A stretch of DNA of 64,000 bases, from contig JAJXZW010000005.1 in NCBI GenBank assembly GCA_021779855.1, forward strand, positions 23,949 through 87,948, written 5' to 3'. The notes beneath the pieces are model-generated. The model did not search any database, had not been told where the DNA came from, and worked only from the letters and a program-made list of their open reading frames with translations. How positions within the stretch are numbered: position 1 is the first letter of the stretch; each line of letters opens with the position of its first letter. Below are positions 43,822 to 62,287 of the stretch, piece after piece. This DNA is from Actinomycetes bacterium. GTDB taxonomy: Bacteria; Actinomycetota; Acidimicrobiia; Acidimicrobiales; RAAP-2. Made by a program: the position numbers and the translations under genes.

Positions 43822-44817
43822 TCAGGTCAGCACGTACCGGCCCCGGTCGTTCCCACTACGGGCCACACGGCCCTCGTCCTCGAGCAGGTCGAGGTGACCG
43901 ACCACCTCGGAGATGCCGAGCAGGACCGAGAAGTCCCGGGCCTCGGGGAACAGCTCCGAGGCGAGCTCGTAGACCGTGGCGTCCCCGAGGCGTCGGACGA
44001 GCCGGGCGATGTCGGCCGCCCGGCGCGCGTGATGGCGTCGCGTCGTGTGGACCAGGGTCGCGACGGCCGAGAAGCGAGGACCGTGGCCGGGCAGGACGAC
44101 CAGCGGATCGAGGCGGACGAAGCGCTCGAGGGAGGCGAGGTACTCGACGAGGCTCCGCCGCCGGCCGTCGGGATAGGCCGGGTCGGGCTCGAGCACCGGG
44201 TTCGGGGTGACCGAGGCGAGCAGGTGGTCGCCGGAGACGAGCACCCGAGCGTCCGCGTCGAAGAGCGAGACGTGGCCGACCGCGTGCCCGGGCGTCACGT
44301 GGACCCGCCAGTCTCGCCCGCCGGCGGCGAGCAGGTCACCGTCGTCGAGGAGGCGGAGGCGGCCCTCGTCGATCGGGTGGGCCAGGTGGCGGACGTCTTG
44401 GAAGAAGGCGCCGGCCGTGGCCCGCAGCGAATCGGGGAGCCCGAGCCGGCCGGCGAGCTCGAGGAGCGCCGGCCGATTGGCGGCGGCGCCGGTGACCTTG
44501 GGCACCTCGGCCCGCCCGCACAGGACCGGGGCGTCGGCCACCTCGGCGAGCCACCCGGCGGCGCCGAAGTGGTCCGGGTGGCCGTGGGTGACCACCACCT
44601 GATCGACGTCGGCCAGCTCCCGGCCGACCTCCCGGAGCGCGGCGGTCAGGATGTCGGTGCTGTCGGCCCACCGCATACCCGGATCGACCACGGTCAGGGG
44701 CTCATCGAGGAGGAGGTAGCAGTTGACGTCGCCCACGGGGAACGGCGTCGGCAGCGCCACGGCCACGATGCCCTCGGGCACGTGCTCGACCACCGGGGCC
44801 AGGAGCCGGGAGCTCAC
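43822..44817 (-). CDS. MBL-fold metallo-hydrolase
   Basis: THGHPDHFG, TPGHAVGH, SGDHLL, LPGHGP. Confidence 0.9.
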   Translation of the reverse strand: MSSRLLAPVVEHVPEGIVAVALPTPFPVGDVNCYLLLDEPLTVVDPGMRWADSTDILTAALREVGRELADVDQVVVTHGHPDHFGAAGWLAEVADAPVLCGRAEVPKVTGAAANRPALLELAGRLGLPDSLRATAGAFFQDVRHLAHPIDEGRLRLLDDGDLLAAGGRDWRVHVTPGHAVGHVSLFDADARVLVSGDHLLASVTPNPVLEPDPAYPDGRRRSLVEYLASLERFVRLDPLVVLPGHGPRFSAVATLVHTTRRHHARRAADIARLVRRLGDATVYELASELFPEARDFSVLLGISEVVGHLDLLEDEGRVARSGNDRGRYVLT

Positions 44818-53728: not shown

Positions 53729-53757
53729 TTGAACCTAAGAACGCATGTACGTACAAT
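53729..53757 (+). promoter_or_regulatory. Leaderless promoter with overlapping GntR(HutC)-type palindrome
   Basis: TTGAAC-N17-TACAAT, TGTACGTACA palindrome at 53746-53755, GTG start at 53764. Confidence 0.8.
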
Positions 53758-53763
53758 TATCGC

Positions 53764-54603
53764 GTGACGCCGCTCGACTTCGTGGTCTCCCTGGCCCTCA
53801 TCTCGGTGGCGGCGGGGGTCCTCGGGTCGCTCGTGGGCCTCGGGGGCGGGGTCGTGATCGTCCCCACCCTCACGCTGCTGTACCACGTGGACATCCGCCT
53901 GGCCATCGGCGCGAGCATCGTCTCGGTGATCGCCACCTCGAGCGGCGCGGCGGCGGCCTACGTCCGCGACCGGATGGCGAACCTGCGCGCCGGGATGTTC
54001 CTCGAGGTCGCCACGACCACCGGGGCGCTGACCGGGGCGTACCTCACGACGCTCCTCCCCGCCCGGTTCCTGTTCGTCTTCTTCGGGCTCATCCTCGCCT
54101 ACTCCTCGGTCGCGACCTTCCGGCGCCGCCACGCCGACGCGCCGCTCACGGCGTCCGACGACCGGCTCGCCAACTACTTCGACCTGCACGGCTCCTACCA
54201 CGACCTGGCGGAGGGTCGCGAGATCCCCTACAAGGTCGTCGGCACCAAGCTCGGACTCTCGATCATGTACGTCGCCGGGCTGGTGAGCGCCCTGCTCGGC
54301 ATCGGCTCGGGGGCGCTCAAGGTACCGGCCATGGACAGCGCGATGCACCTGCCGATGAAGGTCTCCTCGGCGACGAGCAACTTCATGATCGGGGTGACGG
54401 CCGCGGCCAGCGCCGGCGTCTACTTCGTGCGGGGCCAGATCGACCCGATCATCGCCGCCCCGGTGGCCGCGGGCGTCCTGCTCGGGGCGACCGTCGGCGC
54501 CCGGATCCTCGGCCGAGCCGCCAGCAAGACCATCCGGATACTCTTTGTCGTGGTCCTCGTGGTCATCTCGCTCGAGATGCTCCAGAAGGGGGTCCTCGCG
54601 TGA
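53764..54603 (+). CDS. Sulfite exporter TauE/SafE family
   Basis: GSLVGLGGGVVIVP, SALLGIGSGALKVPAM, SSATSNFMIGVTAA. Confidence 0.92.
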   Translation: MTPLDFVVSLALISVAAGVLGSLVGLGGGVVIVPTLTLLYHVDIRLAIGASIVSVIATSSGAAAAYVRDRMANLRAGMFLEVATTTGALTGAYLTTLLPARFLFVFFGLILAYSSVATFRRRHADAPLTASDDRLANYFDLHGSYHDLAEGREIPYKVVGTKLGLSIMYVAGLVSALLGIGSGALKVPAMDSAMHLPMKVSSATSNFMIGVTAAASAGVYFVRGQIDPIIAAPVAAGVLLGATVGARILGRAASKTIRILFVVVLVVISLEMLQKGVLA

Positions 54604-55094
54604 GCGGCGCCGGTCGAGGGCCGGGCCGCCACCCGGCCGGCCCCTCGGGCGCGACGTGGCGGGGCGCGCGTCGGGCGCCCACCCCCGCCGAGGCGGCGCG
54701 CACGGCCCAGAAGGTCCGCCGGGTCGAGCTCGCGATCAGCCTCGTCCTGCGGGTCGGCGTCGTGACGAGCGTGCTCGTCATCGCCGTGGGCCTCGGCCTG
54801 ATGTTCGCCCATCACGGGTCCTACCTGGCGCTGCGCGGGCCCCTCTCCTACCGGGCGCTCACCTCGACCTCGACGTCGTTCCCGCACTCCTTCAGCGCGC
54901 TCGGCCACGCCCTGGCCCACGACGAGGGCCGCGGGGTCGTGGTGCTCGGGGTCTTGATCTTGATCCTCACCCCGGTGCTGCGGGTCGCCGTCGGCGTCGT
55001 GTCCTTCGCCTACGAGAAGGACGCGCCGATGGCCCTCGTCACGCTCTTCGTCCTCGCGGTCCTCGTGGGCTCGTTCTTCCTCGCGGGGGCGTGA
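54600..55094 (+). CDS. DUF1634 membrane protein
   Basis: ISLVLRVGV, GVLILILTPVLRVA; usual partner of TauE; GTGA overlap. Confidence 0.85.
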   Translation: MSGAGRGPGRHPAGPSGATWRGARRAPTPAEAARTAQKVRRVELAISLVLRVGVVTSVLVIAVGLGLMFAHHGSYLALRGPLSYRALTSTSTSFPHSFSALGHALAHDEGRGVVVLGVLILILTPVLRVAVGVVSFAYEKDAPMALVTLFVLAVLVGSFFLAGA

Positions 55095-55843
55095 TGGCGG
55101 GCGTGCTGGACCGGTCGAGCCCGCTGCCCCTCTGGGCCCAGACGGCCGAGGACCTGCGCCGGCGGCTGCTCGAGGGCGAGTTCACCGAGCGCTTCCCCAC
55201 CGACGAGGAGCTGACCCGCGCCTACGGGATCAGCCGCCAGACCGTGCGCGAGGCCGTGCGCCACCTGGCCGCCGAGGGGCTGGTCGTGCGCCAGCGGGGG
55301 CGGGGCTCGTCGGTGACACCCCCGGTCCTCGAGCAGCCCCTGCACTCCCTCTACAGCCTGGCCTCGACGGTGCGCGCCGGGGGCATCGAGGAGCGCAGCG
55401 AGGTCCTCGCCGCGCGACGCCAGCCGGCGGCGGCCGACGTCGCCGCGCACCTCGCCGTCGAGGTCGGCGACGAGGTCGTCTACATCGAGCGGCTCCGCTT
55501 CGCCGGGGCCGAGCCGATCGCCTGGGACCGGTCCTCGCTCCGGGGGGACCGGGCCGGAGGGCTCCTCGAGGCCGACCTCTCCAGCGGTGGGCTCTACGAA
55601 CTCCTCGTCGAGCACTGCGCCCTGCGCATCACCGGGGGCTGGGAGCGCATCCGCCCGGTCGTCCCCGAGCCCGCCGAGCGCCGGCTGCTGCGCCTGCCCC
55701 CGCGGGTGGCGGCCTTCTCGATCGAGCGCCTCGCCCTCGTGGGTGAGACCCCGCTCGAGTGGCGCCGCAGCCTCATCCGGGGCGACCGCTACTCGCTCGT
55801 CGCCCAGTGGCCGCCGGGCCCGCGGCCGAGCGCCGGAGGCTGA
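55094..55843 (+). CDS. GntR family regulator (HutC/UTRA type)
   Basis: FPTDEELTRAYGISRQTVREAV, QRGRGS, UTRA-like C-terminus RGDRY. Confidence 0.92.
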   Translation: MAGVLDRSSPLPLWAQTAEDLRRRLLEGEFTERFPTDEELTRAYGISRQTVREAVRHLAAEGLVVRQRGRGSSVTPPVLEQPLHSLYSLASTVRAGGIEERSEVLAARRQPAAADVAAHLAVEVGDEVVYIERLRFAGAEPIAWDRSSLRGDRAGGLLEADLSSGGLYELLVEHCALRITGGWERIRPVVPEPAERRLLRLPPRVAAFSIERLALVGETPLEWRRSLIRGDRYSLVAQWPPGPRPSAGG

Positions 55844-55857
55844 GCCCCGGGGCCGAG

Positions 55858-55901
55858 CGGCCGCAACACCGCGACGCCGCGGCCCCGCGGTGTTGCGGCC
55901 G
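55858..55901. terminator. 16-bp perfect-stem hairpin after gntR
   Basis: CGGCCGCAACACCGCG-N12-CGCGGTGTTGCGGCCG; no U-tract. Confidence 0.6.
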
Positions 55902-55913
55902 TCGCCCGCTCCT

Positions 55914-55931
55914 GATACCCTGGGGGGTATC
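55914..55931. promoter_or_regulatory. CsoR/RcnR/CstR-family operator
   Basis: GATACCC-TGGG-GGGTATC: ATA/TAT flanks around C- and G-tracts, 32 bp before sqr. Confidence 0.85.
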
Positions 55932-55963
55932 CTCCGGAGGGTCCGGGGCCAGAGAGGCAGAGC

Positions 55964-57421
55964 GTGGCGCGCGTCGTCGTCCTTGGAGCGGGCATCTCGG
56001 GCCACACCGCCGCCCTGCACCTGCGCCGGGCGCTGCCGCGGGACCACGAGGTGGTCGTCGTCTCGCCCAACCGGGACTGGAACTGGATCCCGTCGAACGT
56101 CTGGGTCGGGGTCGGGCGCATGAGCGCCGAGCGGGTCACCTTCCCCCTCGCGCCCGTATACGAGCGCCAGGGGATCGTCTTCCACCAGGCCCGAGCCACG
56201 GCGCTCTTCCCCGAGGGCTCGGACCGCGAGAGCCGTCCCCACGTGGAGGTTGCCTCCACCGAGCCCGAGCGGGACGGCGCGACGGCGCTCGTCCCCTACG
56301 ACTACCTCATCAACGCGACCGGCCCGAAACTGAACTTCGCGGCGACGCCGGGTCTCGGTCCGGACGCCCACACCGCCTCGGTCTGCACGCCGGCCCACGC
56401 CCTCGACGCGGCGCAGGGACTCCGGGGCGTGATCGAGCGGGCCCGTCGCGGCGAGCGCCAGCGCGTCGTCGTCGGCGTCGGCCACGGGACCTGCACCTGC
56501 GAGGGCGCGGCCTTCGAGTATGCGTTCAACGTCGAGCACGAGTTGCGCGTGGCGGGGGTGCGCGACCTGGTCGAGGTCGTCTACTTCACCAACGAGGCCG
56601 AGTTGGGCGACTTCGGGGTGGGCGGGCTCGTGTTCGGCCACGGCGACTTCCAGACGACCTCGCAGCTCTGGACCGAGTCGCTGTTCCGCGAACGCGGGGT
56701 GAAGGCCGTCGTCGGCGCCCACGCCGATCGCATCGACGAGGGCGTCATCCACTACGAGCAGCTCGACGGATCGGAGAACACCCTCTCGTTCGACTTCGCC
56801 ATGCTCCTGCCGCCGTTCCGCGGGGTGGGGCTCTCGGCCTACGACCGCACGGGCGCCGAGGTGACCGACGAGGTGTTCGCCGGGAACGGCTTCATGCGCG
56901 TCGACGCCGACTACGCAGCGAAGTCACCCCAGGAGTGGTCGGCGGCCGACTGGCCCTCGACGTACGAGTCGCCGCGCTACCCCAACGTCTTCGCGGTCGG
57001 CATCGCCTTCGCGCCGCCCCACGCCATCTCGACCCCGCGCACCAGCCCGCGCGGCACGGTGATCTCCCCGGCCCCCCCGCGCACCGGCATGCCCTCGGGC
57101 GTGATGGGCAAGACCGTGGCGCTCACGATCGCCGACCGCATCCGCCACGGCGCCGACACCCGGGCTCGGCGCGCCTCGATGGCCGACATGGGCGCCATCT
57201 GCGTCGCCTCGGCCGGGGTGGGCCTGCGCCGCGGCTCGGCGGCGGCGATGACGATGTACCCCATCGTCCCCGACCCCGGCCGCTTCCCGGGCACCGGCCG
57301 GTCCATTCCGGACACCTTCGGCGAGATCGGCCTCGCCGGCCACTGGATCAAGTACATGCTCCACGTGCTCTTCATCTACAAGGCGAAGGCTCGGCCCTTC
57401 TGGTACCTCATCCCGGAGTAG
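55964..57421 (+). CDS. sqr: Sulfide:quinone oxidoreductase family flavoprotein
   Basis: VVVLGAGISG, WIPSNVWVG, DYLINATG, TCTCEGAAFEY, PPRTGM, ICVASAG, amphipathic C-terminus. Confidence 0.8.
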   Translation: MARVVVLGAGISGHTAALHLRRALPRDHEVVVVSPNRDWNWIPSNVWVGVGRMSAERVTFPLAPVYERQGIVFHQARATALFPEGSDRESRPHVEVASTEPERDGATALVPYDYLINATGPKLNFAATPGLGPDAHTASVCTPAHALDAAQGLRGVIERARRGERQRVVVGVGHGTCTCEGAAFEYAFNVEHELRVAGVRDLVEVVYFTNEAELGDFGVGGLVFGHGDFQTTSQLWTESLFRERGVKAVVGAHADRIDEGVIHYEQLDGSENTLSFDFAMLLPPFRGVGLSAYDRTGAEVTDEVFAGNGFMRVDADYAAKSPQEWSAADWPSTYESPRYPNVFAVGIAFAPPHAISTPRTSPRGTVISPAPPRTGMPSGVMGKTVALTIADRIRHGADTRARRASMADMGAICVASAGVGLRRGSAAAMTMYPIVPDPGRFPGTGRSIPDTFGEIGLAGHWIKYMLHVLFIYKAKARPFWYLIPE

Positions 57422-57424
57422 ACG

Positions 57425-57571
57425 ATGGACAACGTTCACGACACGATCGCCCGCGCCCCGCTGCCCACCCCGCGCACGCTGCGCCGCCGCCGGAACCTCG
57501 CCTACCAGACCTGGCGCTTCGTCGCCACCAACCTCCGTATGATCCGCATGGTCATGAAAGGGAGCCACTGA
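57425..57571 (+). CDS. 48-aa Arg-rich micro-protein
   Basis: MDNVHDTIARAPLPTPRTLRRRRNLAYQTWRFVATNLRMIRMVMKGSH; GGAG 6 nt upstream, GC3-biased codons, TGATG coupling to the next gene. Confidence 0.75.
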   Translation: MDNVHDTIARAPLPTPRTLRRRRNLAYQTWRFVATNLRMIRMVMKGSH

Positions 57572-57885
57572 TGACCGAACGAGCGACGAACGCCTCACCC
57601 GAGGCGCCCCGGGGACCCGGCGCGCTGCGCGACCCGGACCAGGCGCGCGCCGTCGCCACGCGGCTCAAGCGCGCCCAGGGCCAGATCGGCGCCGTCGTGC
57701 GCATGATCGAAGAGGGGCGCAACTGCGAGGAGATCGTGACCCAGATCGCGGCCGTCTCCAAGGCCGTGAACACCGCGGCCTTCACGATGCTCACCTCGAG
57801 CATGCGCGAGTGCCTGGCCGAGAGCACCGCCGAGTCCTCGGCACTGGCCGACCGGCTCCAGAAGCTCTTCTTGAGCCTGGCCTGA
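57571..57885 (+). CDS. CsoR/RcnR-family repressor, CstR-like
   Basis: RLKRAQGQIGAVVRMIEEGRNCEEIVTQIAAV...SSMRECL; Cys52 and Cys81, no His. Confidence 0.9.
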   Translation: MTERATNASPEAPRGPGALRDPDQARAVATRLKRAQGQIGAVVRMIEEGRNCEEIVTQIAAVSKAVNTAAFTMLTSSMRECLAESTAESSALADRLQKLFLSLA

Positions 57886-57890
57886 TAGCC

Positions 57891-59528
57891 GTGCGCGCGG
57901 TCATCATCGGTGGCGTGGCCGGCGGCATGTCCGCGGCGGCCCGCCTTCGCCGCCTCCTCGACGACGCCGAGATCGTCGTGCTGGAGAAGAGCGGCCACGT
58001 CTCCTACGCCAACTGCGGCCTGCCCTACTACGTGGGCGGGGTGATCAAGGACGAGGACGACCTCCTCTTGCAGACCCCCGACTCCCTCTACCAGCGCTTC
58101 CGCCTCGACGTGCGCGTGCGCCACGAGGCGACAGTCCTGGACACCGCCCGCAAGCGCGTGGGCGTGCGCGACCTCGACCACGACACCACCTACGAGCTCG
58201 ACTACGACGTCCTGGTGCTGAGCCCGGGCGCCCAGGCCGTCGTGCCCCCGATCCCCGGCGTCGAGCGCGCCCTGGCGCTGCGCACCGTCGAGGACGTCGA
58301 GCGCCTGCGCGACGCCGCCCTCGACGCGCGCGCGGCCGTCGTGGTCGGTGGCGGCTTCGTCGGCCTCGAGGTGGCCGAGAACCTGCACCGGCGCGGCATC
58401 GACACGACGGTGGTCGAGGCGACCGAGCAGGTCCTCGGTCCGCTCGACCCCGAGATGGCCGAGCACGTGCTCGCCGAGCTGGTGCGCCACGGCGTCGCCG
58501 TCTACCTCGGCACCGGGGTCGAGGCGGTCGACGCGGACACGGTCACCCTGGCCAACGGGGAGCGCCTCGGCGCCGACCTCGTCGTGGTGGCGATCGGCGT
58601 GCGCCCCGAGGTCCACCTCGCCCGGGCCGCCGGGCTCACCCTCGGCCCCCGGGGCGGCATCGCCGTCGACGAGTACCAGCGCACGAGCGACCCCGCCGTC
58701 TACGCGGTCGGCGACGCCGTCGAGAAGTCCGACGCGCTCGACGGCTCGGCGGCCCTGGTGCCGCTCGCCAACATCGCCAACCGCCAGGGCCGGGTCGCCG
58801 CCGACCACATCGCCGGGCGCCCGGTCCGGCCGAGGCCCGCCATCGGGACGGCGATCGTCAAGGTCTTCGACCTCACGGTCGCCGTGACCGGGTGGAGCGA
58901 GAAGCGCCTGCGGGCCGCCGGCCGGCCGGCCCAGGCCATCCACACCCACCCCAGCTCGCACGCCGGCTACTACCCCGGGGCCAAGGAGATGGCCCTCAAG
59001 CTGGTCGTCGACCCCGCGAGCGGCGCCATCCTGGGCGCCCAGGGGGTCGGCCGCGACGGGGTCGACAAGCGCATCGACGTGATCGCGACGGCCCTGCGCG
59101 CCGGGCTGCGAGCCGAGGAGCTCGCCGACCTCGAGCTCGCCTACGCGCCGCCCTTCAGCTCGGCGAAGGACCCCGTCAACATGCTCGGCTACGTCGCCGA
59201 GAACGTGCTGTCGGGCCTGGGCTCGACGGCCCAGTGGGACGAGGTCGCCGACCTGCAGTCCGAGGGGGCGCTCCTGCTCGACGTGCGCACGGCCCGCGAG
59301 TTCGCCCACGGCCGCATCCCGGGGTCGCTGAACATCCCGGTCGACGAGCTGCGCGAGCGCGTCGGGGAGATCGACGCCGCCGAGGTGCTCGTCGTGTGCC
59401 AGGTCGGCGTGCGCGGCTGGACCGCGGTGCGCATCCTGCGCGCCCTCGGGATCGACGCGCGCAACCTCGACGGCGGCTTCGAGACGTGGAGCCGGTCGCC
59501 GGCGGCCCGCTCCTTGGAGTTCGCCTAG
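57891..59528 (+). CDS. CoA-disulfide/persulfide reductase with C-terminal rhodanese domain
   Basis: IIGGVAGGMSAA, SYANCGLPYY, GGGFVGLE, YAPPFSSAKDPVN, LLDVRT..EF, VCQVGVRG. Confidence 0.93.
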   Translation: MRAVIIGGVAGGMSAAARLRRLLDDAEIVVLEKSGHVSYANCGLPYYVGGVIKDEDDLLLQTPDSLYQRFRLDVRVRHEATVLDTARKRVGVRDLDHDTTYELDYDVLVLSPGAQAVVPPIPGVERALALRTVEDVERLRDAALDARAAVVVGGGFVGLEVAENLHRRGIDTTVVEATEQVLGPLDPEMAEHVLAELVRHGVAVYLGTGVEAVDADTVTLANGERLGADLVVVAIGVRPEVHLARAAGLTLGPRGGIAVDEYQRTSDPAVYAVGDAVEKSDALDGSAALVPLANIANRQGRVAADHIAGRPVRPRPAIGTAIVKVFDLTVAVTGWSEKRLRAAGRPAQAIHTHPSSHAGYYPGAKEMALKLVVDPASGAILGAQGVGRDGVDKRIDVIATALRAGLRAEELADLELAYAPPFSSAKDPVNMLGYVAENVLSGLGSTAQWDEVADLQSEGALLLDVRTAREFAHGRIPGSLNIPVDELRERVGEIDAAEVLVVCQVGVRGWTAVRILRALGIDARNLDGGFETWSRSPAARSLEFA

Positions 59529-59596
59529 CCCCCCGCGTCGCGACGGCGCCCGAGTCAACCCCACCAACCACCAACCACCTCCAAAGGAGACAACAC

Positions 59597-59764
59597 ATGT
59601 GCCACCGGACCACCTGCCGCTCGTGCGGACGCCCGACCTGGTCGGGCTGCGGTAACCACATCGAGCAGGCCCTGGCGGGCGTGCCCAAGAGCGAGCGCTG
59701 CACCTGCGACGACAGCGGGTCGAGCTCGCGCGGCGGCTTCTTCTCGCGCCTGCGGGGCAACTAG
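59597..59764 (+). CDS. 55-aa Cys-rich micro-protein
   Basis: MCHRTTCRSCGRPTWSGCGNHIEQALAGVPKSERCTC...; strong AAAGGAG RBS 7 nt upstream. Confidence 0.85.
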   Translation: MCHRTTCRSCGRPTWSGCGNHIEQALAGVPKSERCTCDDSGSSSRGGFFSRLRGN

Positions 59765-59767
59765 CCG

Positions 59768-60541
59768 ATGACGGCGGCCGACCACTGGAGGACGGCCCTC
59801 GCCGCCTGGGCGATTCCCGAGGGGATCCTGACCCAGGCGCCCGAGAGTCCGTGGATCCACCCACCGGCGCTCTTCGGAGTGCCCGAGCGCATCGCCGAGA
59901 GCCCGAGTCACACCCGGGCGCGCGAGGCGCTCGGCGACGAGGCCAGCGTGCTCGACGTGGGCTGCGGCGGCGGCGTGGCCGCCATGGCCCTCGTCCCGCC
60001 GGCGCGACACCTGACCGGCGTCGACCACCAGGCGGCGATGCTCGAGATGTTCCGCGAGAACGCCCGCCGTCGGGGAGTCGAGTCCGACACCCTCGAGGGC
60101 GACTGGCCCGACGTCGCTGACCGGGCCCCGGTCGCCGACGTCGTGACGTGCCACCACGTCGTCTACAACGTCGGCGACGTGGTGCCCTTCCTCAGGGCCC
60201 TCGACGAGCACGCGCGCCGGCGCGTCGTCATCGAGATGCCCACCCGCCACCCGCTCGCCTCGATGAACGACGCGTGGCGTCACTTCTGGGACCTCGAGCG
60301 GCCCGAGGGGCCCACGCCGCGCGACCTCGTGGCCGTCCTCGCGGAGATGGGCGTCGACGCCCACCTCGAGACGTTCGAGTCGACCTCGACCCGCGAGGTC
60401 GACCCCGAGCAGGCCGTCGCCTTCACGCGCGTCCGCCTCTGCCTGCCGGCCTCGCGCGACGACGAGGTCCGTCGCTACCTCGCCGAGCACCCCGCACCGT
60501 CGACGCGCGCCCTGGCCACGGTGTGGTGGGACCGGACGTGA
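59768..60541 (+). CDS. Class I SAM-dependent methyltransferase
   Basis: VLDVGCGGG, ADVVTCHHVVYNV. Confidence 0.88.
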   Translation: MTAADHWRTALAAWAIPEGILTQAPESPWIHPPALFGVPERIAESPSHTRAREALGDEASVLDVGCGGGVAAMALVPPARHLTGVDHQAAMLEMFRENARRRGVESDTLEGDWPDVADRAPVADVVTCHHVVYNVGDVVPFLRALDEHARRRVVIEMPTRHPLASMNDAWRHFWDLERPEGPTPRDLVAVLAEMGVDAHLETFESTSTREVDPEQAVAFTRVRLCLPASRDDEVRRYLAEHPAPSTRALATVWWDRT

Positions 60542-60588: not shown

Positions 60589-61125
60589 CTACTGGCCGGC
60601 CCGGCCGTCGACGCGCTCGCGCAGCAGGTCGGCGTGGCCGCAGTGGCGGGCGTACTCCTCGATCAGGTGCACCACGATGTCGCGCACCTCGAGCTCCTCG
60701 CCGTGCCAGGGAACGCGCTCGCCGAGGTCCTCGATCCCCGCGAGCACCCCCTCGGCGTGGGCCACCTCGGCGCGCCAGGCGTCGAAGGCCTCGGCGACGC
60801 AGCCGGCCTCGGCGACGGCGCCGTTGAAGTCGGCGTCGGGGTCCTCCTCGCTCGCGAAGGGGTCGGCGACCTCGAGCCCCTCGATCACCCGGCGGAACCA
60901 GTGGCATTCGACGTTGGCCGAGTGGCGCACGAGGCCGAGCAGCGACATCGTCGAGGGTGCGACGGAGCGCTCGGCCAGCCCCGCCGGGTCGAGGCCGGCG
61001 CACTTGAGCTCGAGGGTCTGGCGGTAGGCGCGCAGGTAGCCCTCGAGGGTGTCGCGCTCCCCGCGCCCCGGGCGGCCCTCGCGCGGGTCGTCGGCGGGGG
61101 CGACGAACATCCCGTCGGGTCCCAT
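60589..61125 (-). CDS. DinB/DUF664 family protein
   Basis: TMSLLGLVRHSANVE, HLIEEYARHCGHADLLRE; start uncertain. Confidence 0.88.
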   Translation of the reverse strand: MGPDGMFVAPADDPREGRPGRGERDTLEGYLRAYRQTLELKCAGLDPAGLAERSVAPSTMSLLGLVRHSANVECHWFRRVIEGLEVADPFASEEDPDADFNGAVAEAGCVAEAFDAWRAEVAHAEGVLAGIEDLGERVPWHGEELEVRDIVVHLIEEYARHCGHADLLRERVDGRAGQ

Positions 61126-61318
61126 GCGCCGCACGGGGACGCGCACGTCGCTCACGCCCACGAGCCTCCCCGACCGCGCCGGCCCCGTCCAGCACGATTC
61201 CCCGTGGCGTCGCGTGGCGTTACCTACACTGGTCCGTGCGCTCACCGAGGGTCGTCCGGGCCGGGCGCGACGCCAGATAGGCCTACCGGTGGCTAACCGG
61301 GCTCGTTCGAAGGGAGTG

Positions 61319-62287
61319 ATGAGCATGTTCTTGCGCCGCCCGCTGCGCGAGCTCCTCTTCGACCCGGCGGCCGCGGCCACGTTCTTCTGGCTGGGCGGGG
61401 TGGTCGGCGCCGCGGTGATGCTCCTCACCAGCCACTGGCCCCACGACGCCGTCGTGACGACCCTCGTGGTTATGGGCATCGCCCTGCTCGCCACGGTGAC
61501 GCGGGCCCTCGTCGGCGAGCGCCGACCCCGCTGGACGCTCCAGGTCGACGCGGCGCTCGCGACCGGCCTGGTGAGCGTGGTGCTGGCGGTCGCCCCCTCC
61601 GGCTACAGCACCTTCGCGATCTTCTACGTGTGGATCGCGCTCTACGCGTCGCTCTACTTCACCCGGCTCCAGAGCGTCGTCCAGATCGCCCTGGTGGCCC
61701 TGGCCTACGGGCTGGTGCTCGCGAACGGCCCGGCCGTGGACCGCCCCGCCGCCTCCTGGATCGCCATCGTGGGCACGTGCGCGACCTTCGCGACGCTCAC
61801 CTCGACGCTCGTGAACGTGCTGCGCACGACGGCGCGCCAGGACCCCCTGACCGGGGTGGCCAACCGGCGGGTCTTCGACGAGCGCCTGGCCGAGGAGATC
61901 GAGCGGGCCCGCCGCTCGAAGGCGCCGCTGTCGGTCGTCGCGATCGACGTCGACGACTTCAAGGGCGTCAACGACCACCGGGGGCACCTCGCCGGGGACC
62001 GGGCCCTCGTGCGCCTCGTCGAGGAGTGGCGGGGCGGCCTGCGCCGCGCCACCGACTTCCTCGCGCGCCTGGGCGGCGACGAGTTCGCCGCCATCGTCGC
62101 CGACGCCGACGCCGACCAGGTCCGCCCGCTCGTCGAGCGCCTGGGCGCCGTGACGACCGACGGGGTCACCGCCTCGGTGGGCGCGGCGACCTGGGACGGC
62201 GCCGAGAGCGCGGAGGACCTCTTCCGGCGGGCCGACGCGGCGATGTTCCAGGCGAAGGCCGCCCGCAAGGCGGACCGGTCGTCCTAG
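61319..62287 (+). CDS. Membrane-bound diguanylate cyclase (GGDEF)
   Basis: About 6 TM helices, QDPLTGVANRR, DVDDFKGVND, RxxD I-site, RLGGDEF. Confidence 0.92.
   Translation: MSMFLRRPLRELLFDPAAAATFFWLGGVVGAAVMLLTSHWPHDAVVTTLVVMGIALLATVTRALVGERRPRWTLQVDAALATGLVSVVLAVAPSGYSTFAIFYVWIALYASLYFTRLQSVVQIALVALAYGLVLANGPAVDRPAASWIAIVGTCATFATLTSTLVNVLRTTARQDPLTGVANRRVFDERLAEEIERARRSKAPLSVVAIDVDDFKGVNDHRGHLAGDRALVRLVEEWRGGLRRATDFLARLGGDEFAAIVADADADQVRPLVERLGAVTTDGVTASVGAATWDGAESAEDLFRRADAAMFQAKAARKADRSS

What the first reader, a model, noticed from the sequence alone, without database searches (positions are those of the whole stretch)
53729..60541. Two-module sulfide/persulfide detoxification locus with a hybrid architecture and unknown partner proteins
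Seen: promoter-tauE-DUF1634-gntR, a hairpin, then CsoR-type operator-sqr-48aa-cstR-like-CoADR/rhodanese-55aa-methyltransferase, all on one strand with 0-70 bp gaps. Known: the S. aureus cst locus has CstR, TauE, SQR and the persulfide dioxygenase CstB, while E. faecalis cst uses a CoA-persulfide reductase-rhodanese. Inference: this actinobacterial locus joins SQR + TauE with CoAPR but has no persulfide dioxygenase. It adds two micro-proteins and a methyltransferase and splits control between two sensors. It may be an undescribed route for handling reactive sulfur.
Basis: partly seen in the sequence, partly recalled or inferred. Interest (0 to 1): 0.85.

Follow-up and report, generated by a model that had tools for sequence, protein, structure and literature searches.

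The report
CstR-controlled sulfide operon beside unrelated transporter operon
This stretch holds a real and widely conserved actinobacterial operon for coping with hydrogen sulfide (a sulfide-oxidising enzyme, a persulfide sensor, a CoA-persulfide reductase, two unstudied mini-proteins and a methyltransferase), and it happens to sit next to a separate, independently regulated transporter operon; the main chemistry is known, and the mini-proteins and the methyltransferase are the unknown parts.

Summary

The "two-module locus" is a lineage-specific juxtaposition of two independent operons.
- The TauE operon has its own conserved operator and promoter.
- It occurs in 3 of 37 genomes of the genus.
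- In other families it occurs without sqr.

The second operon is a common accessory unit of Acidimicrobiia and Nanopelagicales (acI), built from two cassettes.
- sqr-p48: the 48-aa gene follows sqr in 78 of 80 loci.
- operator-cstR-coaP-p55-MTase: this also occurs without sqr.
- The operator ATACCC-N4-GGGTAT precedes sqr in 65 of 80 loci.

The locus lacks a persulfide dioxygenase, but the genome does not. A rhodanese-MBL fusion resembling persulfide dioxygenases lies on another contig and is present in 30 of 37 genomes of the genus.

My verdict is a new variant of the known cst-type reactive-sulfur systems. The unexplained parts are p48 (probably an SQR partner), the p55 family (at least 1,899 unannotated clusters, also in a PDO-type CstR operon) and the UbiG-like methyltransferase (possibly a sulfide S-methylase).

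The parts
53729..53757 (+). Promoter-like site TTGAAC-17-TACAAT of the tauE operon. The palindrome TGTACGTACA (53746-53755) is embedded in it and is the likely GntR/HutC operator. The tauE GTG lies 7 nt after the -10 hexamer, so the transcript is leaderless or nearly so.
   Evidence: Consensus scan, 1 hit against 0.1 expected. ATGTACGTACAAT is identical upstream of the tauE orthologues in 5 genomes from 3 families.
53764..54603 (+). TauE/SafE (TSUP family) membrane transporter, 279 aa. It is the only TSUP found in this genome.
   Evidence: PF01925, E 1e-48. Single tblastn hit in the genome.
54600..55094 (+). DUF1634 membrane protein, 164 aa by the public gene call. Its start overlaps the tauE stop.
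   Evidence: PF07843, E 4e-25. Gene call. It follows tauE in the orthologous loci.
55094..55843 (+). GntR-family regulator of the HutC subfamily (HTH + UTRA domain), 249 aa. Its start overlaps the DUF1634 stop by 1 nt.
   Evidence: PF00392 and PF07702. Conserved downstream of tauE-DUF1634 in G001, G004 and G043, and convergent in G050.
55857..55902 (+). Hairpin with a 17-bp G+C-rich stem and no T-tract. It is the probable terminator of the tauE operon.
   Evidence: MFE -51.7 kcal/mol, z -4.28 against shuffles.
55915..55930 (.). CsoR/CstR-type operator ATACCCTGGGGGGTAT, 34 nt upstream of the sqr GTG.
   Evidence: Unique in the window, 0 expected. Only three such sites exist in the 2.06-Mb genome. 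The same motif lies within 250 nt upstream of sqr in 65 of 80 related loci.
55964..57421 (+). Sulfide:quinone oxidoreductase, 485 aa. It has three catalytic-type Cys (141, 179, 413) plus an invariant Cys177.
   Evidence: PDB 3sz0 and 3hyv, E about 1e-33, with the Cys aligned. Thousands of homologues of 485 aa at 68-93% identity, which JGI names SQR. Invariant columns.
57425..57571 (+). p48, a 48-aa basic protein with an invariant core AP.PT..T.R.R.....Q..RF and a long amphipathic C-terminal helix. It is the proposed small partner of this SQR clade.
   Evidence: Directly downstream of sqr in 78 of 80 loci. 414 representative proteins in 1.84 billion. AF2 pLDDT 86, helix at residues 25-47. Hydrophobic moment about 0.55. 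No Pfam or NCBIfam family.
57571..57885 (+). CstR-like persulfide-sensing repressor of the CsoR family, 104 aa. It has Cys52 and Cys81 and contains no His at all. Its ATG overlaps the p48 stop (TGATG).
   Evidence: PF02583, E 3e-22. The best solved relative is the streptococcal CstR structure 7mq1, with both Cys aligned. Cys and His positions.
57891..59528 (+). CoA-disulfide reductase fused to rhodanese (CoA-persulfide / polysulfide reductase type), 545 aa. Cys42 lies in SYANCGLPYY and Cys503 in the rhodanese loop VVCQVGVRG.
   Evidence: PDB 3icr E 2e-159, 8a56 (E. faecalis CoAPR) E 8e-159, 3nta E 2e-158. Cys positions.
59597..59764 (+). p55, a 55-aa Cys-rich protein with the 38-aa core M-C-x4-C-x2-C-x7-C-G-x-H-x13-C-x-C. 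It has a strong AAAGGAG ribosome-binding site.
   Evidence: Linked to sqr and/or coaP in most loci, with up to three paralogues per acI locus. 1,899 clusters, all named 'hypothetical'. Last gene of a PDO-type CstR operon in L126. AF2 pLDDT 73, no fold match.
59768..60541 (+). Class I SAM-dependent methyltransferase, 257 aa and UbiG-like. It starts 3 nt after the p55 stop.
   Evidence: Methyltransf_25/11/23. TIGR01983 UbiG E 5e-9. PDB UbiG 4kdr E 2e-6. It follows p55 in 21 of 80 SQR loci and in 5 of 8 SQR-less loci, once with its own operator.

Best explanation
Two independent operons lie head to tail.

(1) tauE-DUF1634-gntR. This is an accessory, horizontally mobile transporter operon. Its transcript is leaderless or nearly so. 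It is auto-repressed by its own HutC-type GntR regulator at the palindrome TGTACGTACA, which overlaps the -10 hexamer, and it ends at the hairpin. Its substrate is unknown; sulfite or an organosulfonate is suggested only by the family name.

(2) sqr-p48-cstR-coaP-p55-MTase. This is an accessory reactive-sulfur stress operon, repressed by its own two-Cys CstR-like protein at ATACCC-N4-GGGTAT.

Inferred mechanism, by analogy with characterised homologues:
- Sulfide gives rise to sulfane sulfur, which modifies Cys52 and Cys81 of the repressor and releases it from DNA.
- SQR, probably together with the amphipathic mini-protein p48 at the membrane, oxidises H2S to sulfane sulfur and passes the electrons to menaquinone.
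- The CoADR-rhodanese uses NAD(P)H to strip sulfane sulfur from CoA persulfide or polysulfide. This protects the CoA pool and returns H2S to SQR.
- Net removal of sulfur is left to the rhodanese-persulfide-dioxygenase fusion encoded elsewhere, and possibly to the operon's methyltransferase.
- p55 is a metal- or sulfane-binding accessory common to actinobacterial CstR regulons.

Shown here: gene identities, catalytic residues, operator conservation, modular synteny and phyletic patterns. Inferred: every biochemical step.
For: Domains and catalytic Cys.

Coupling within operon 2: gaps of 3 nt, an overlap, 5 nt, 68 nt and 3 nt.

Operator: unique in the window and present upstream of sqr in 65 of 80 loci from Acidimicrobiia to Nanopelagicales, Kineosporiaceae and Mycobacterium. 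It also heads cstR-coaP-p55-MTase in all 8 SQR-less genomes examined.

Synteny: p48 follows sqr in 78 of 80 loci. sqr-p48-cstR-coaP occurs in 29 of 80, and all six genes are co-linear in 21 of 80. The acI version adds a single-domain rhodanese, as in the E. faecalis cst-like operon.

Independence of operon 1:
- The TauE orthologue is in 3 of 37 genus genomes, against SQR in 12 of 37 and CoAPR in 21 of 37.
- tauE-DUF1634(-gntR) at 67-86% identity occurs in other families without sqr.
- It has its own conserved operator and promoter and a strong hairpin after gntR.

PDO elsewhere: the rhodanese-MBL fusion at C21 best matches 3tp9, BpPRF 5ve3, 4ysb and ETHE1 4chl. It is present in 30 of 37 genus genomes.

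A separate copper-type CsoR (C-H-C motif) with a 17-nt operator exists, so the window's regulator is not the copper sensor.

Literature: actinobacterial two-Cys CsoR-family proteins form a large cluster of candidate persulfide sensors (PMC8643695). The S. coelicolor CsoR-like/PDO/rhodanese/TauE circuit is characterised (PMC7533328). CoAPR protects the CoA pool (PMC9405070).
Against:
- SQR and a persulfide reductase in one operon look like a futile cycle unless a downstream sink exists. The candidate PDO has no CstR operator near it.
- The hairpin has no T-tract, so read-through from the tauE operon into sqr cannot be excluded.
- The low-molecular-weight thiol is uncertain. The MshC-like and MshA-like hits fall below the curated cut-offs, so the true substrate of the CoADR-rhodanese could be CoA persulfide, mycothiol persulfide or polysulfide.
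- The roles of p48, p55 and the methyltransferase rest on gene linkage alone.
Confidence: 0.72

Rival explanations
1. TauE, SQR, CoAPR, the two micro-proteins and the methyltransferase form one integrated sulfide-detoxification pathway that works without a persulfide dioxygenase and is controlled jointly by GntR and CstR.
For: The units are adjacent and co-oriented in G000, G001 and G004. TauE is the only TSUP in the genome. TauE sits inside CstR-type operons in Saccharomonospora and S. coelicolor (PMC7533328). The hairpin lacks a T-tract.
Against: The adjacency is found in only 1 of 80 SQR loci from other assemblies and in 3 of 37 genus genomes. The TauE unit stands alone elsewhere and has its own operator. 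No CstR operator precedes tauE. A PDO-like gene is present in the genome and near-core in the genus.
Confidence: 0.1
2. The operon serves sulfide buffering, sulfur acquisition or energy gain, and detoxification is not its main role. SQR feeds sulfide electrons into the respiratory chain and stores sulfur as sulfane sulfur. The CoADR-rhodanese releases H2S again on demand for cysteine synthesis. This would suit streamlined Acidimicrobiia and acI cells that depend on reduced sulfur.
For: The operon is frequent in small-genome freshwater lineages: Nanopelagicales genomes of 1.4 Mb and this 2.06-Mb genome. SQR plus a reductase forms a reversible pair. SQR is an accessory trait in the genus.
Against: Control by a persulfide-type repressor and co-regulation with thioredoxin-DUF302 are typical of stress responses. 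No sulfur-globule or sox/dsr genes were seen next to the operon in the loci examined.
Confidence: 0.13
3. The CsoR-family protein is a metal (copper) sensor, and the flavoproteins serve a metal or oxidative-stress function unrelated to sulfide.
For: The Pfam and NCBIfam best names are metal sensors: RicR E 4e-13, FrmR, RcnR. The operator resembles CsoR operators.
Against: The protein contains no His at all and keeps only the two Cys, so the x-C-x-C pattern of CstR is met and the x-C-H-C pattern of copper sensors is not (PMC8643695). A genuine C-H-C CsoR lies next to a YHS/TRASH-repeat permease elsewhere in the genome. Linkage to SQR and rhodanese holds across 80 loci.
Confidence: 0.03

Closest known systems
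Enterococcus faecalis / Streptococcus mitis cst-like operon (cstR-rhdA-coaP-rhdB)
   Same: A two-Cys CsoR-family repressor with a G+C-rich palindromic operator controls a CoADR-rhodanese that is about 1e-159 to the solved E. faecalis CoAPR (8a56). The acI version of the operon also carries a single-domain rhodanese.
   Different: This operon contains SQR, which E. faecalis lacks. This genome's version has no stand-alone rhodaneses. It adds p48, p55 and a methyltransferase. The host is a high-G+C actinobacterium that probably makes mycothiol.
Staphylococcus aureus cst locus (cstR, tauE, cstA, cstB, sqr)
   Same: CstR-type control of an SQR, with a TauE gene close by.
   Different: The locus has no CstA multidomain sulfurtransferase and no CstB persulfide dioxygenase; a rhodanese-PDO fusion lies on another contig. 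TauE here is under a GntR regulator, not CstR. By its three Cys, the SQR is nearest to solved type I enzymes, not to the staphylococcal enzyme (described in the literature as type II), which did not appear among the PDB matches.
Streptomyces coelicolor sulfane-sulfur circuit (CsoR-like regulator, PDO, rhodanese, TauE; PMC7533328)
   Same: An actinobacterial two-Cys CsoR-like repressor senses sulfane sulfur. It belongs to the same large actinomycete cluster of candidate sensors (PMC8643695). The Saccharomonospora version of that circuit ends with a p55-family gene.
   Different: That circuit has PDO and no SQR or CoAPR. The operon here has SQR and CoAPR and no PDO.
MddM1 / MddH H2S- and methanethiol-S-methyltransferases (PMC12904073, PMC11445057)
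   Same: UbiG/UbiE-like class I SAM methyltransferases found in many Actinomycetota. They are induced by H2S and proposed to detoxify sulfide. The methyltransferase here is UbiG-like and sits in a sulfide-responsive operon.
   Different: MddM1 is 210 aa and this protein is 257 aa, with an N-terminal extension of about 55 aa. No MddM1 sequence was available for comparison, so the relationship is untested.

Membership tests
CstR (persulfide-sensing CsoR-family repressor) | CsoR/RcnR-family fold (PF02583) | tested here: met
   E 3e-22, residues 26-99.
CstR (persulfide-sensing CsoR-family repressor) | x-C-x-C fingerprint: two conserved Cys about 29 residues apart, and no His at the copper-ligand position | tested here: met
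   Cys52 and Cys81 align with both Cys of the solved streptococcal CstR 7mq1. The protein has no His at all. The position 4 residues before the second Cys is Ser, where SpCstR has Asn55 and copper sensors have His (PMC8643695).
CstR (persulfide-sensing CsoR-family repressor) | Palindromic G+C-rich operator in the promoter of sulfur-detoxification genes | tested here: met
   ATACCCTGGGGGGTAT lies 34 nt before sqr. It is conserved in 65 of 80 loci and in 8 of 8 SQR-less coaP loci.
CstR (persulfide-sensing CsoR-family repressor) | Di-, tri- or tetrasulfide cross-linking or persulfidation by sulfane sulfur, causing release from DNA | not testable with these tools
   Needs purified protein, EMSA or anisotropy, and mass spectrometry.
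CoA-persulfide reductase / CoADR-RHD | CoADR domain with a single redox Cys in the SxANCGLPYY motif | tested here: met
   SYANCGLPYY with Cys42. TIGR03385 scores 437 bits, below its 579-bit cut-off, which was set for plain CoADR.
CoA-persulfide reductase / CoADR-RHD | C-terminal rhodanese domain with an active-site Cys | tested here: met
   PF00581, E 1e-16. VVCQVGVRG with Cys503 aligns to the rhodanese loop of 3icr.
CoA-persulfide reductase / CoADR-RHD | NAD(P)H-dependent reduction of CoA persulfide in preference to other persulfides | not testable with these tools
   Enzyme assay needed. The same fold also includes the Shewanella polysulfide reductase (3nta).
Sulfide:quinone oxidoreductase | N-terminal FAD-binding Rossmann motif and the flavoprotein disulfide reductase fold | tested here: met
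   VVVLGAGISGH; Pyr_redox_2 E 4e-9. Alignment to 3sz0 over residues 2-417.
Sulfide:quinone oxidoreductase | Three conserved Cys of type I enzymes (A. ferrooxidans Cys128, Cys160, Cys356) | tested here: met
   Cys141, Cys179 and Cys413 align to them and are invariant in 12 homologues.
Sulfide:quinone oxidoreductase | Assignment to one of SQR types I-VI by phylogeny | not tested
   No reference set was at hand. The nearest solved relatives are type I, at about 30% identity. Published counts list mainly types II-IV in Actinobacteria (PMC5702731).
S. aureus-type cst system | Persulfide dioxygenase (CstB) and multidomain sulfurtransferase (CstA) in the CstR regulon | tested here: not met
   Neither is in the locus. 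The PDO-like fusion is on contig C21 and has no operator nearby.
TauE/SafE (TSUP) exporter | PF01925 membrane domain | tested here: met
   E 1e-48, full length. The substrate is not testable here.
MddM1-type H2S/MeSH S-methyltransferase | Sequence orthology to the characterised MddM1 and S-methylation of H2S or methanethiol | not tested
Only UbiG-likeness is shared.

The most novel reading that the evidence does not exclude
The p55-methyltransferase pair is a CstR-controlled S-methylation branch. It would convert sulfide or persulfide sulfur into volatile methylated sulfur (methanethiol or DMS) in Acidimicrobiia and in the very abundant freshwater acI Actinobacteria, with the Cys-rich p55 acting as sulfane-sulfur or metal carrier. 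In addition, p48 would be an obligatory small subunit of a distinct actinobacterial SQR clade.
Probability: 0.2. Interest if true: 0.7.

Novelty: new variant of a known kind. Interest (0 to 1): 0.45.

Why it matters
Persulfide-sensing cst systems have been worked out mainly in Firmicute pathogens, plus one Streptomyces circuit. This locus shows the version used by Acidimicrobiia and by Nanopelagicales (acI), which are among the most abundant freshwater bacteria. In that version SQR and a CoA-persulfide reductase sit in one CstR operon, together with three conserved components of unknown function.

- p48 follows this SQR almost without exception, which points to an overlooked SQR subunit.
- The p55 family has at least 1,899 sequence clusters, none of them annotated. 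It also appears in PDO-type CstR operons of a cultured genus, so it is a general but unstudied part of the actinobacterial response to reactive sulfur.
- If the methyltransferase methylates sulfide, the operon would link sulfide stress to the production of volatile sulfur in lakes.

All of these ideas can be tested with ordinary genetics and enzymology.

Tried and rejected
- Pfam, NCBIfam and PDB searches for p48 and p55 gave nothing.
- A Foldseek search with the p55 model found no match at E 0.001 or better.
- A single-sequence homologue search for p48 found only 4 proteins, because too few words are shared. The profile search was needed.
- Supplementary neighbourhood data for PMC8643695 are not held. 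MddM1 sequences are not in the held text. Direct comparison with published cluster-3 neighbourhoods and with MddM1 was therefore impossible.
- I considered whether p48 could be a read-through or frameshift extension of SQR and rejected it. The gap and frame vary (3-144 nt), and the ORF has its own start codon in most loci.
- I considered the MBL-fold gene at window 44083-44736 as a local PDO. It was not examined beyond the Pfam hit, and the clearly PDO-like candidate is the fusion on C21.
- I looked for sulfur genes next to stand-alone tauE-DUF1634 units in other families. The contexts were heterogeneous and uninformative.
- The mycothiol test was inconclusive: MshC-like 434 bits against a 485-bit cut-off, and MshA-like 377 bits against a 462-bit cut-off.

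Full report
**Observation**

Pfam assigns the following:
- TauE (E 1e-48);
- DUF1634 (E 4e-25);
- GntR + UTRA, i.e. the HutC subfamily;
- a CsoR-family repressor (E 3e-22);
- a pyridine-nucleotide disulfide reductase fused to rhodanese;
- a class I SAM methyltransferase.

The 485-aa flavoprotein is only weakly recognised by Pfam, but it matches solved sulfide:quinone reductases (3sz0 E 4e-34, 3hyv E 3e-33). Its Cys141, Cys179 and Cys413 align with the three catalytic cysteines. It belongs to a very large, length-conserved family (485 aa, 68-93% identity) that JGI names SQR.

The CoADR-rhodanese matches B. anthracis CoADR-RHD (3icr), E. faecalis CoA-persulfide reductase (8a56) and the Shewanella enzyme (3nta) at about 1e-159. 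It keeps Cys42 in SYANCGLPYY and Cys503 in the rhodanese loop.

The regulator's best solved relative is the streptococcal CstR structure 7mq1. Both Cys align (Cys52, Cys81) and the protein contains no histidine. That is the x-C-x-C fingerprint of persulfide sensors, not the x-C-H-C fingerprint of copper sensors (PMC8643695).

Non-coding features also hold:
- a promoter-like TTGAAC-17-TACAAT site 7 nt before the tauE GTG;
- a 17-bp hairpin after gntR, at -51.7 kcal/mol and z -4.3;
- a unique palindrome ATACCCTGGGGGGTAT 34 nt before sqr, with 0 expected by chance.

Within the second gene group the junctions are 3 nt, a 1-nt overlap, 5 nt, 68 nt and 3 nt. The gntR-sqr gap is 120 nt.

**Comparative anatomy of the sqr operon**

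I anchored 80 loci from distinct genomes on the SQR and mapped the nine proteins onto them.
- The 48-aa ORF lies directly downstream of sqr, on the same strand, in 78 of 80 loci.
- sqr-p48-cstR-coaP occurs in 29 of 80 loci.
- All six genes are co-linear in 21 of 80 loci.
- The carriers are Acidimicrobiales/Acidimicrobiaceae and Nanopelagicales (acI) genomes, including complete 1.4-Mb Nanopelagicaceae chromosomes.

The acI version inserts a 127-aa rhodanese between cstR and coaP. This brings it closer to the E. faecalis cstR-rhdA-coaP-rhdB operon.

The operator ATACCC-N4-GGGTAT lies within 250 nt upstream of sqr in 65 of 80 loci, whether or not cstR is in the operon.

In eight genomes of the same genus that have the CoADR-rhodanese away from any sqr, the unit is operator-cstR-coaP-p55(-MTase). 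One of them carries an extra operator-p55-MTase pair.

The operon is therefore assembled from two cassettes, sqr-p48 and cstR-coaP-p55-MTase, and both answer to the same operator.

**The TauE unit is separate**

Among the 80 SQR loci, tauE-DUF1634-gntR is adjacent only in L004, a 92%-identical relative.

Counts within the 37 genomes of the genus:

| Gene | Genomes with it |
|---|---|
| This TauE orthologue | 3 of 37 |
| SQR | 12 of 37 |
| CoADR-rhodanese | 21 of 37 |

Orthologous tauE-DUF1634(-gntR) units at 67-86% identity occur in three other families with no sqr or coaP nearby. The sequence ATGTACGTACAAT, which holds the -10 hexamer and a perfect palindrome, is identical upstream of tauE in five genomes.

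The three genes overlap start to stop and are followed by the hairpin. This is a self-contained, GntR-autoregulated, probably mobile transporter operon. Its link to sulfur rests on the family name alone.

**Persulfide dioxygenase**

The locus has none, but the genome does. Contig C21 encodes a 362-aa fusion of rhodanese and a metallo-beta-lactamase domain with the THLHADH motif. Its best solved relatives are the rhodanese-MBL protein 3tp9, the PDO-rhodanese fusion BpPRF (5ve3), Myxococcus PDO (4ysb), the staphylococcal MBL protein 3r2u and human ETHE1 (4chl). It is present in 30 of 37 genomes of the genus, so it is core where the sqr operon is accessory.

The conventional route from SQR through PDO to sulfite or thiosulfate is thus available. 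The inference of a PDO-free route does not follow.

**Regulon**

The whole 2.06-Mb genome holds only three CsoR-type palindromes:
- the sqr site;
- a second 16-nt site in front of a thioredoxin (WCAPC) and DUF302 pair;
- a 17-nt variant overlapping the ATG of a second CsoR-family gene.

That second gene has the C-H-C copper fingerprint and lies next to a permease with YHS/TRASH-like repeats. The window's regulator is therefore the sulfur paralogue. It probably also controls thioredoxin-DUF302.

**The three unknowns**

*p48.*
- It has an invariant core (A11, P14, R22, Q28, R31, F32).
- There are 414 representatives among 1.84 billion proteins, nearly all 46-90 aa long.
- It has no family assignment.
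- AF2 predicts a confident long C-terminal helix (pLDDT 86). That helix is strongly amphipathic and basic.
- Its near-obligatory position after this SQR clade suggests a small subunit or membrane-interface partner.

*p55.*
- Its 38-aa core carries invariant Cys2, Cys7, Cys10, Cys18, His21 and Cys35, plus Cys37 or His38.
- acI loci carry up to three paralogues.
- At least 1,899 clusters exist, all named 'hypothetical'.
- AF2 gives a beta-hairpin plus a short helix, with no solved fold match.
- In a Saccharomonospora-like record it is the last gene of an operator-PDO/rhodanese-rhodanese-TauE-thioredoxin-CstR-p55 operon.
- It is therefore a general member of actinobacterial CstR regulons. It is probably a metal-binding or sulfane-sulfur-binding protein.

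*The methyltransferase.*
- It is UbiG-like.
- UbiG-family MddM1 enzymes of Actinomycetota methylate H2S and methanethiol and are induced by H2S (PMC12904073).
- That makes S-methylation a lead. No MddM1 sequence was available to test it.

**Mechanism (inferred)**

- Sulfane sulfur modifies the repressor's two Cys and de-represses the operon.
- SQR, possibly with p48, oxidises H2S at the membrane.
- The CoADR-rhodanese reduces CoA persulfide or polysulfide and so protects the CoA pool, as proposed for E. faecalis (PMC9405070). The released H2S returns to SQR.
- The core rhodanese-PDO, and possibly the methyltransferase, provide the sink.
- Mycothiol may be present. A mycothiol-S-transferase family gene is convergent at 60589-61155. 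MshC-like and MshA-like genes score just under the curated cut-offs.

**Comparison with known systems and verdict**

The system works like the cst and cst-like operons of Firmicutes and the S. coelicolor sulfane-sulfur circuit. Two-Cys CsoR-family proteins of actinomycetes are already recognised as a large, mostly uncharacterised cluster of candidate sensors with sulfur-detoxification neighbourhoods (PMC8643695).

What differs is the gene combination: SQR with CoAPR in one operon, PDO unlinked, and p48, p55 and a methyltransferase added. I rate it a new variant of a known kind, of moderate interest.

Noticed in passing
Own genome contig C16:85440-85455 (outside the window): This is the second 16-nt CsoR/CstR-type palindrome in the genome (ATACCCCCTGGGGTAT). 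It lies just upstream of a minus-strand thioredoxin (WCAPC) gene followed by a DUF302 gene. These are probably further members of the CstR regulon.
   Followed up: partly
Own genome contig C9:111447-113479 (outside the window): This is a second CsoR-family gene with the copper-type C-H-C fingerprint. A 17-nt palindrome (ATACCCCCATGGGGTAT) overlaps its ATG. It lies next to a permease with three YHS/TRASH-like Cys repeats and near a plain CoADR-like gene. The 16-nt versus 17-nt spacing may separate the two regulons.
   Followed up: partly
Own genome contig C21:29078-30166, minus strand (outside the window): This gene encodes a rhodanese-metallo-beta-lactamase fusion that resembles persulfide dioxygenases. 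It is present in 30 of 37 genomes of the genus. No CstR operator lies nearby.
   Followed up: partly
window 60589-61155 (-): A mycothiol-S-transferase / DinB-family gene (PF04978, E 1e-42) is convergent with the methyltransferase. It hints that the organism uses mycothiol.
   Followed up: partly
window 61325-62287 (+): A GGDEF diguanylate cyclase with an N-terminal membrane region lies downstream of the locus. No link to the operon was seen.
   Followed up: no
window about 44083-44736 (-): This is another metallo-beta-lactamase-fold gene (PF00753, E 3e-35; open frame of 391 aa), about 10 kb upstream of the locus. I did not examine whether it is related to sulfur metabolism.
   Followed up: no
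L126:973-5165 (Saccharomonospora-like record): This locus holds an operator followed by PDO-rhodanese, rhodanese-YgaP, TauE, thioredoxin, CstR and p55. It offers a cultivable-genus context in which the p55 family could be studied.
   Followed up: partly
L113:8367-11789 (G050): Two tauE-DUF1634 pairs converge on a single gntR, and an ArsR/SmtB-type regulator lies upstream. This is a duplicated form of the transporter module.
   Followed up: no
L127:3999-5171: In one freshwater contig a p55-family gene directly follows a PF03601 (YeiH-type) membrane protein. There is no CstR operator within 10 kb.
   Followed up: no
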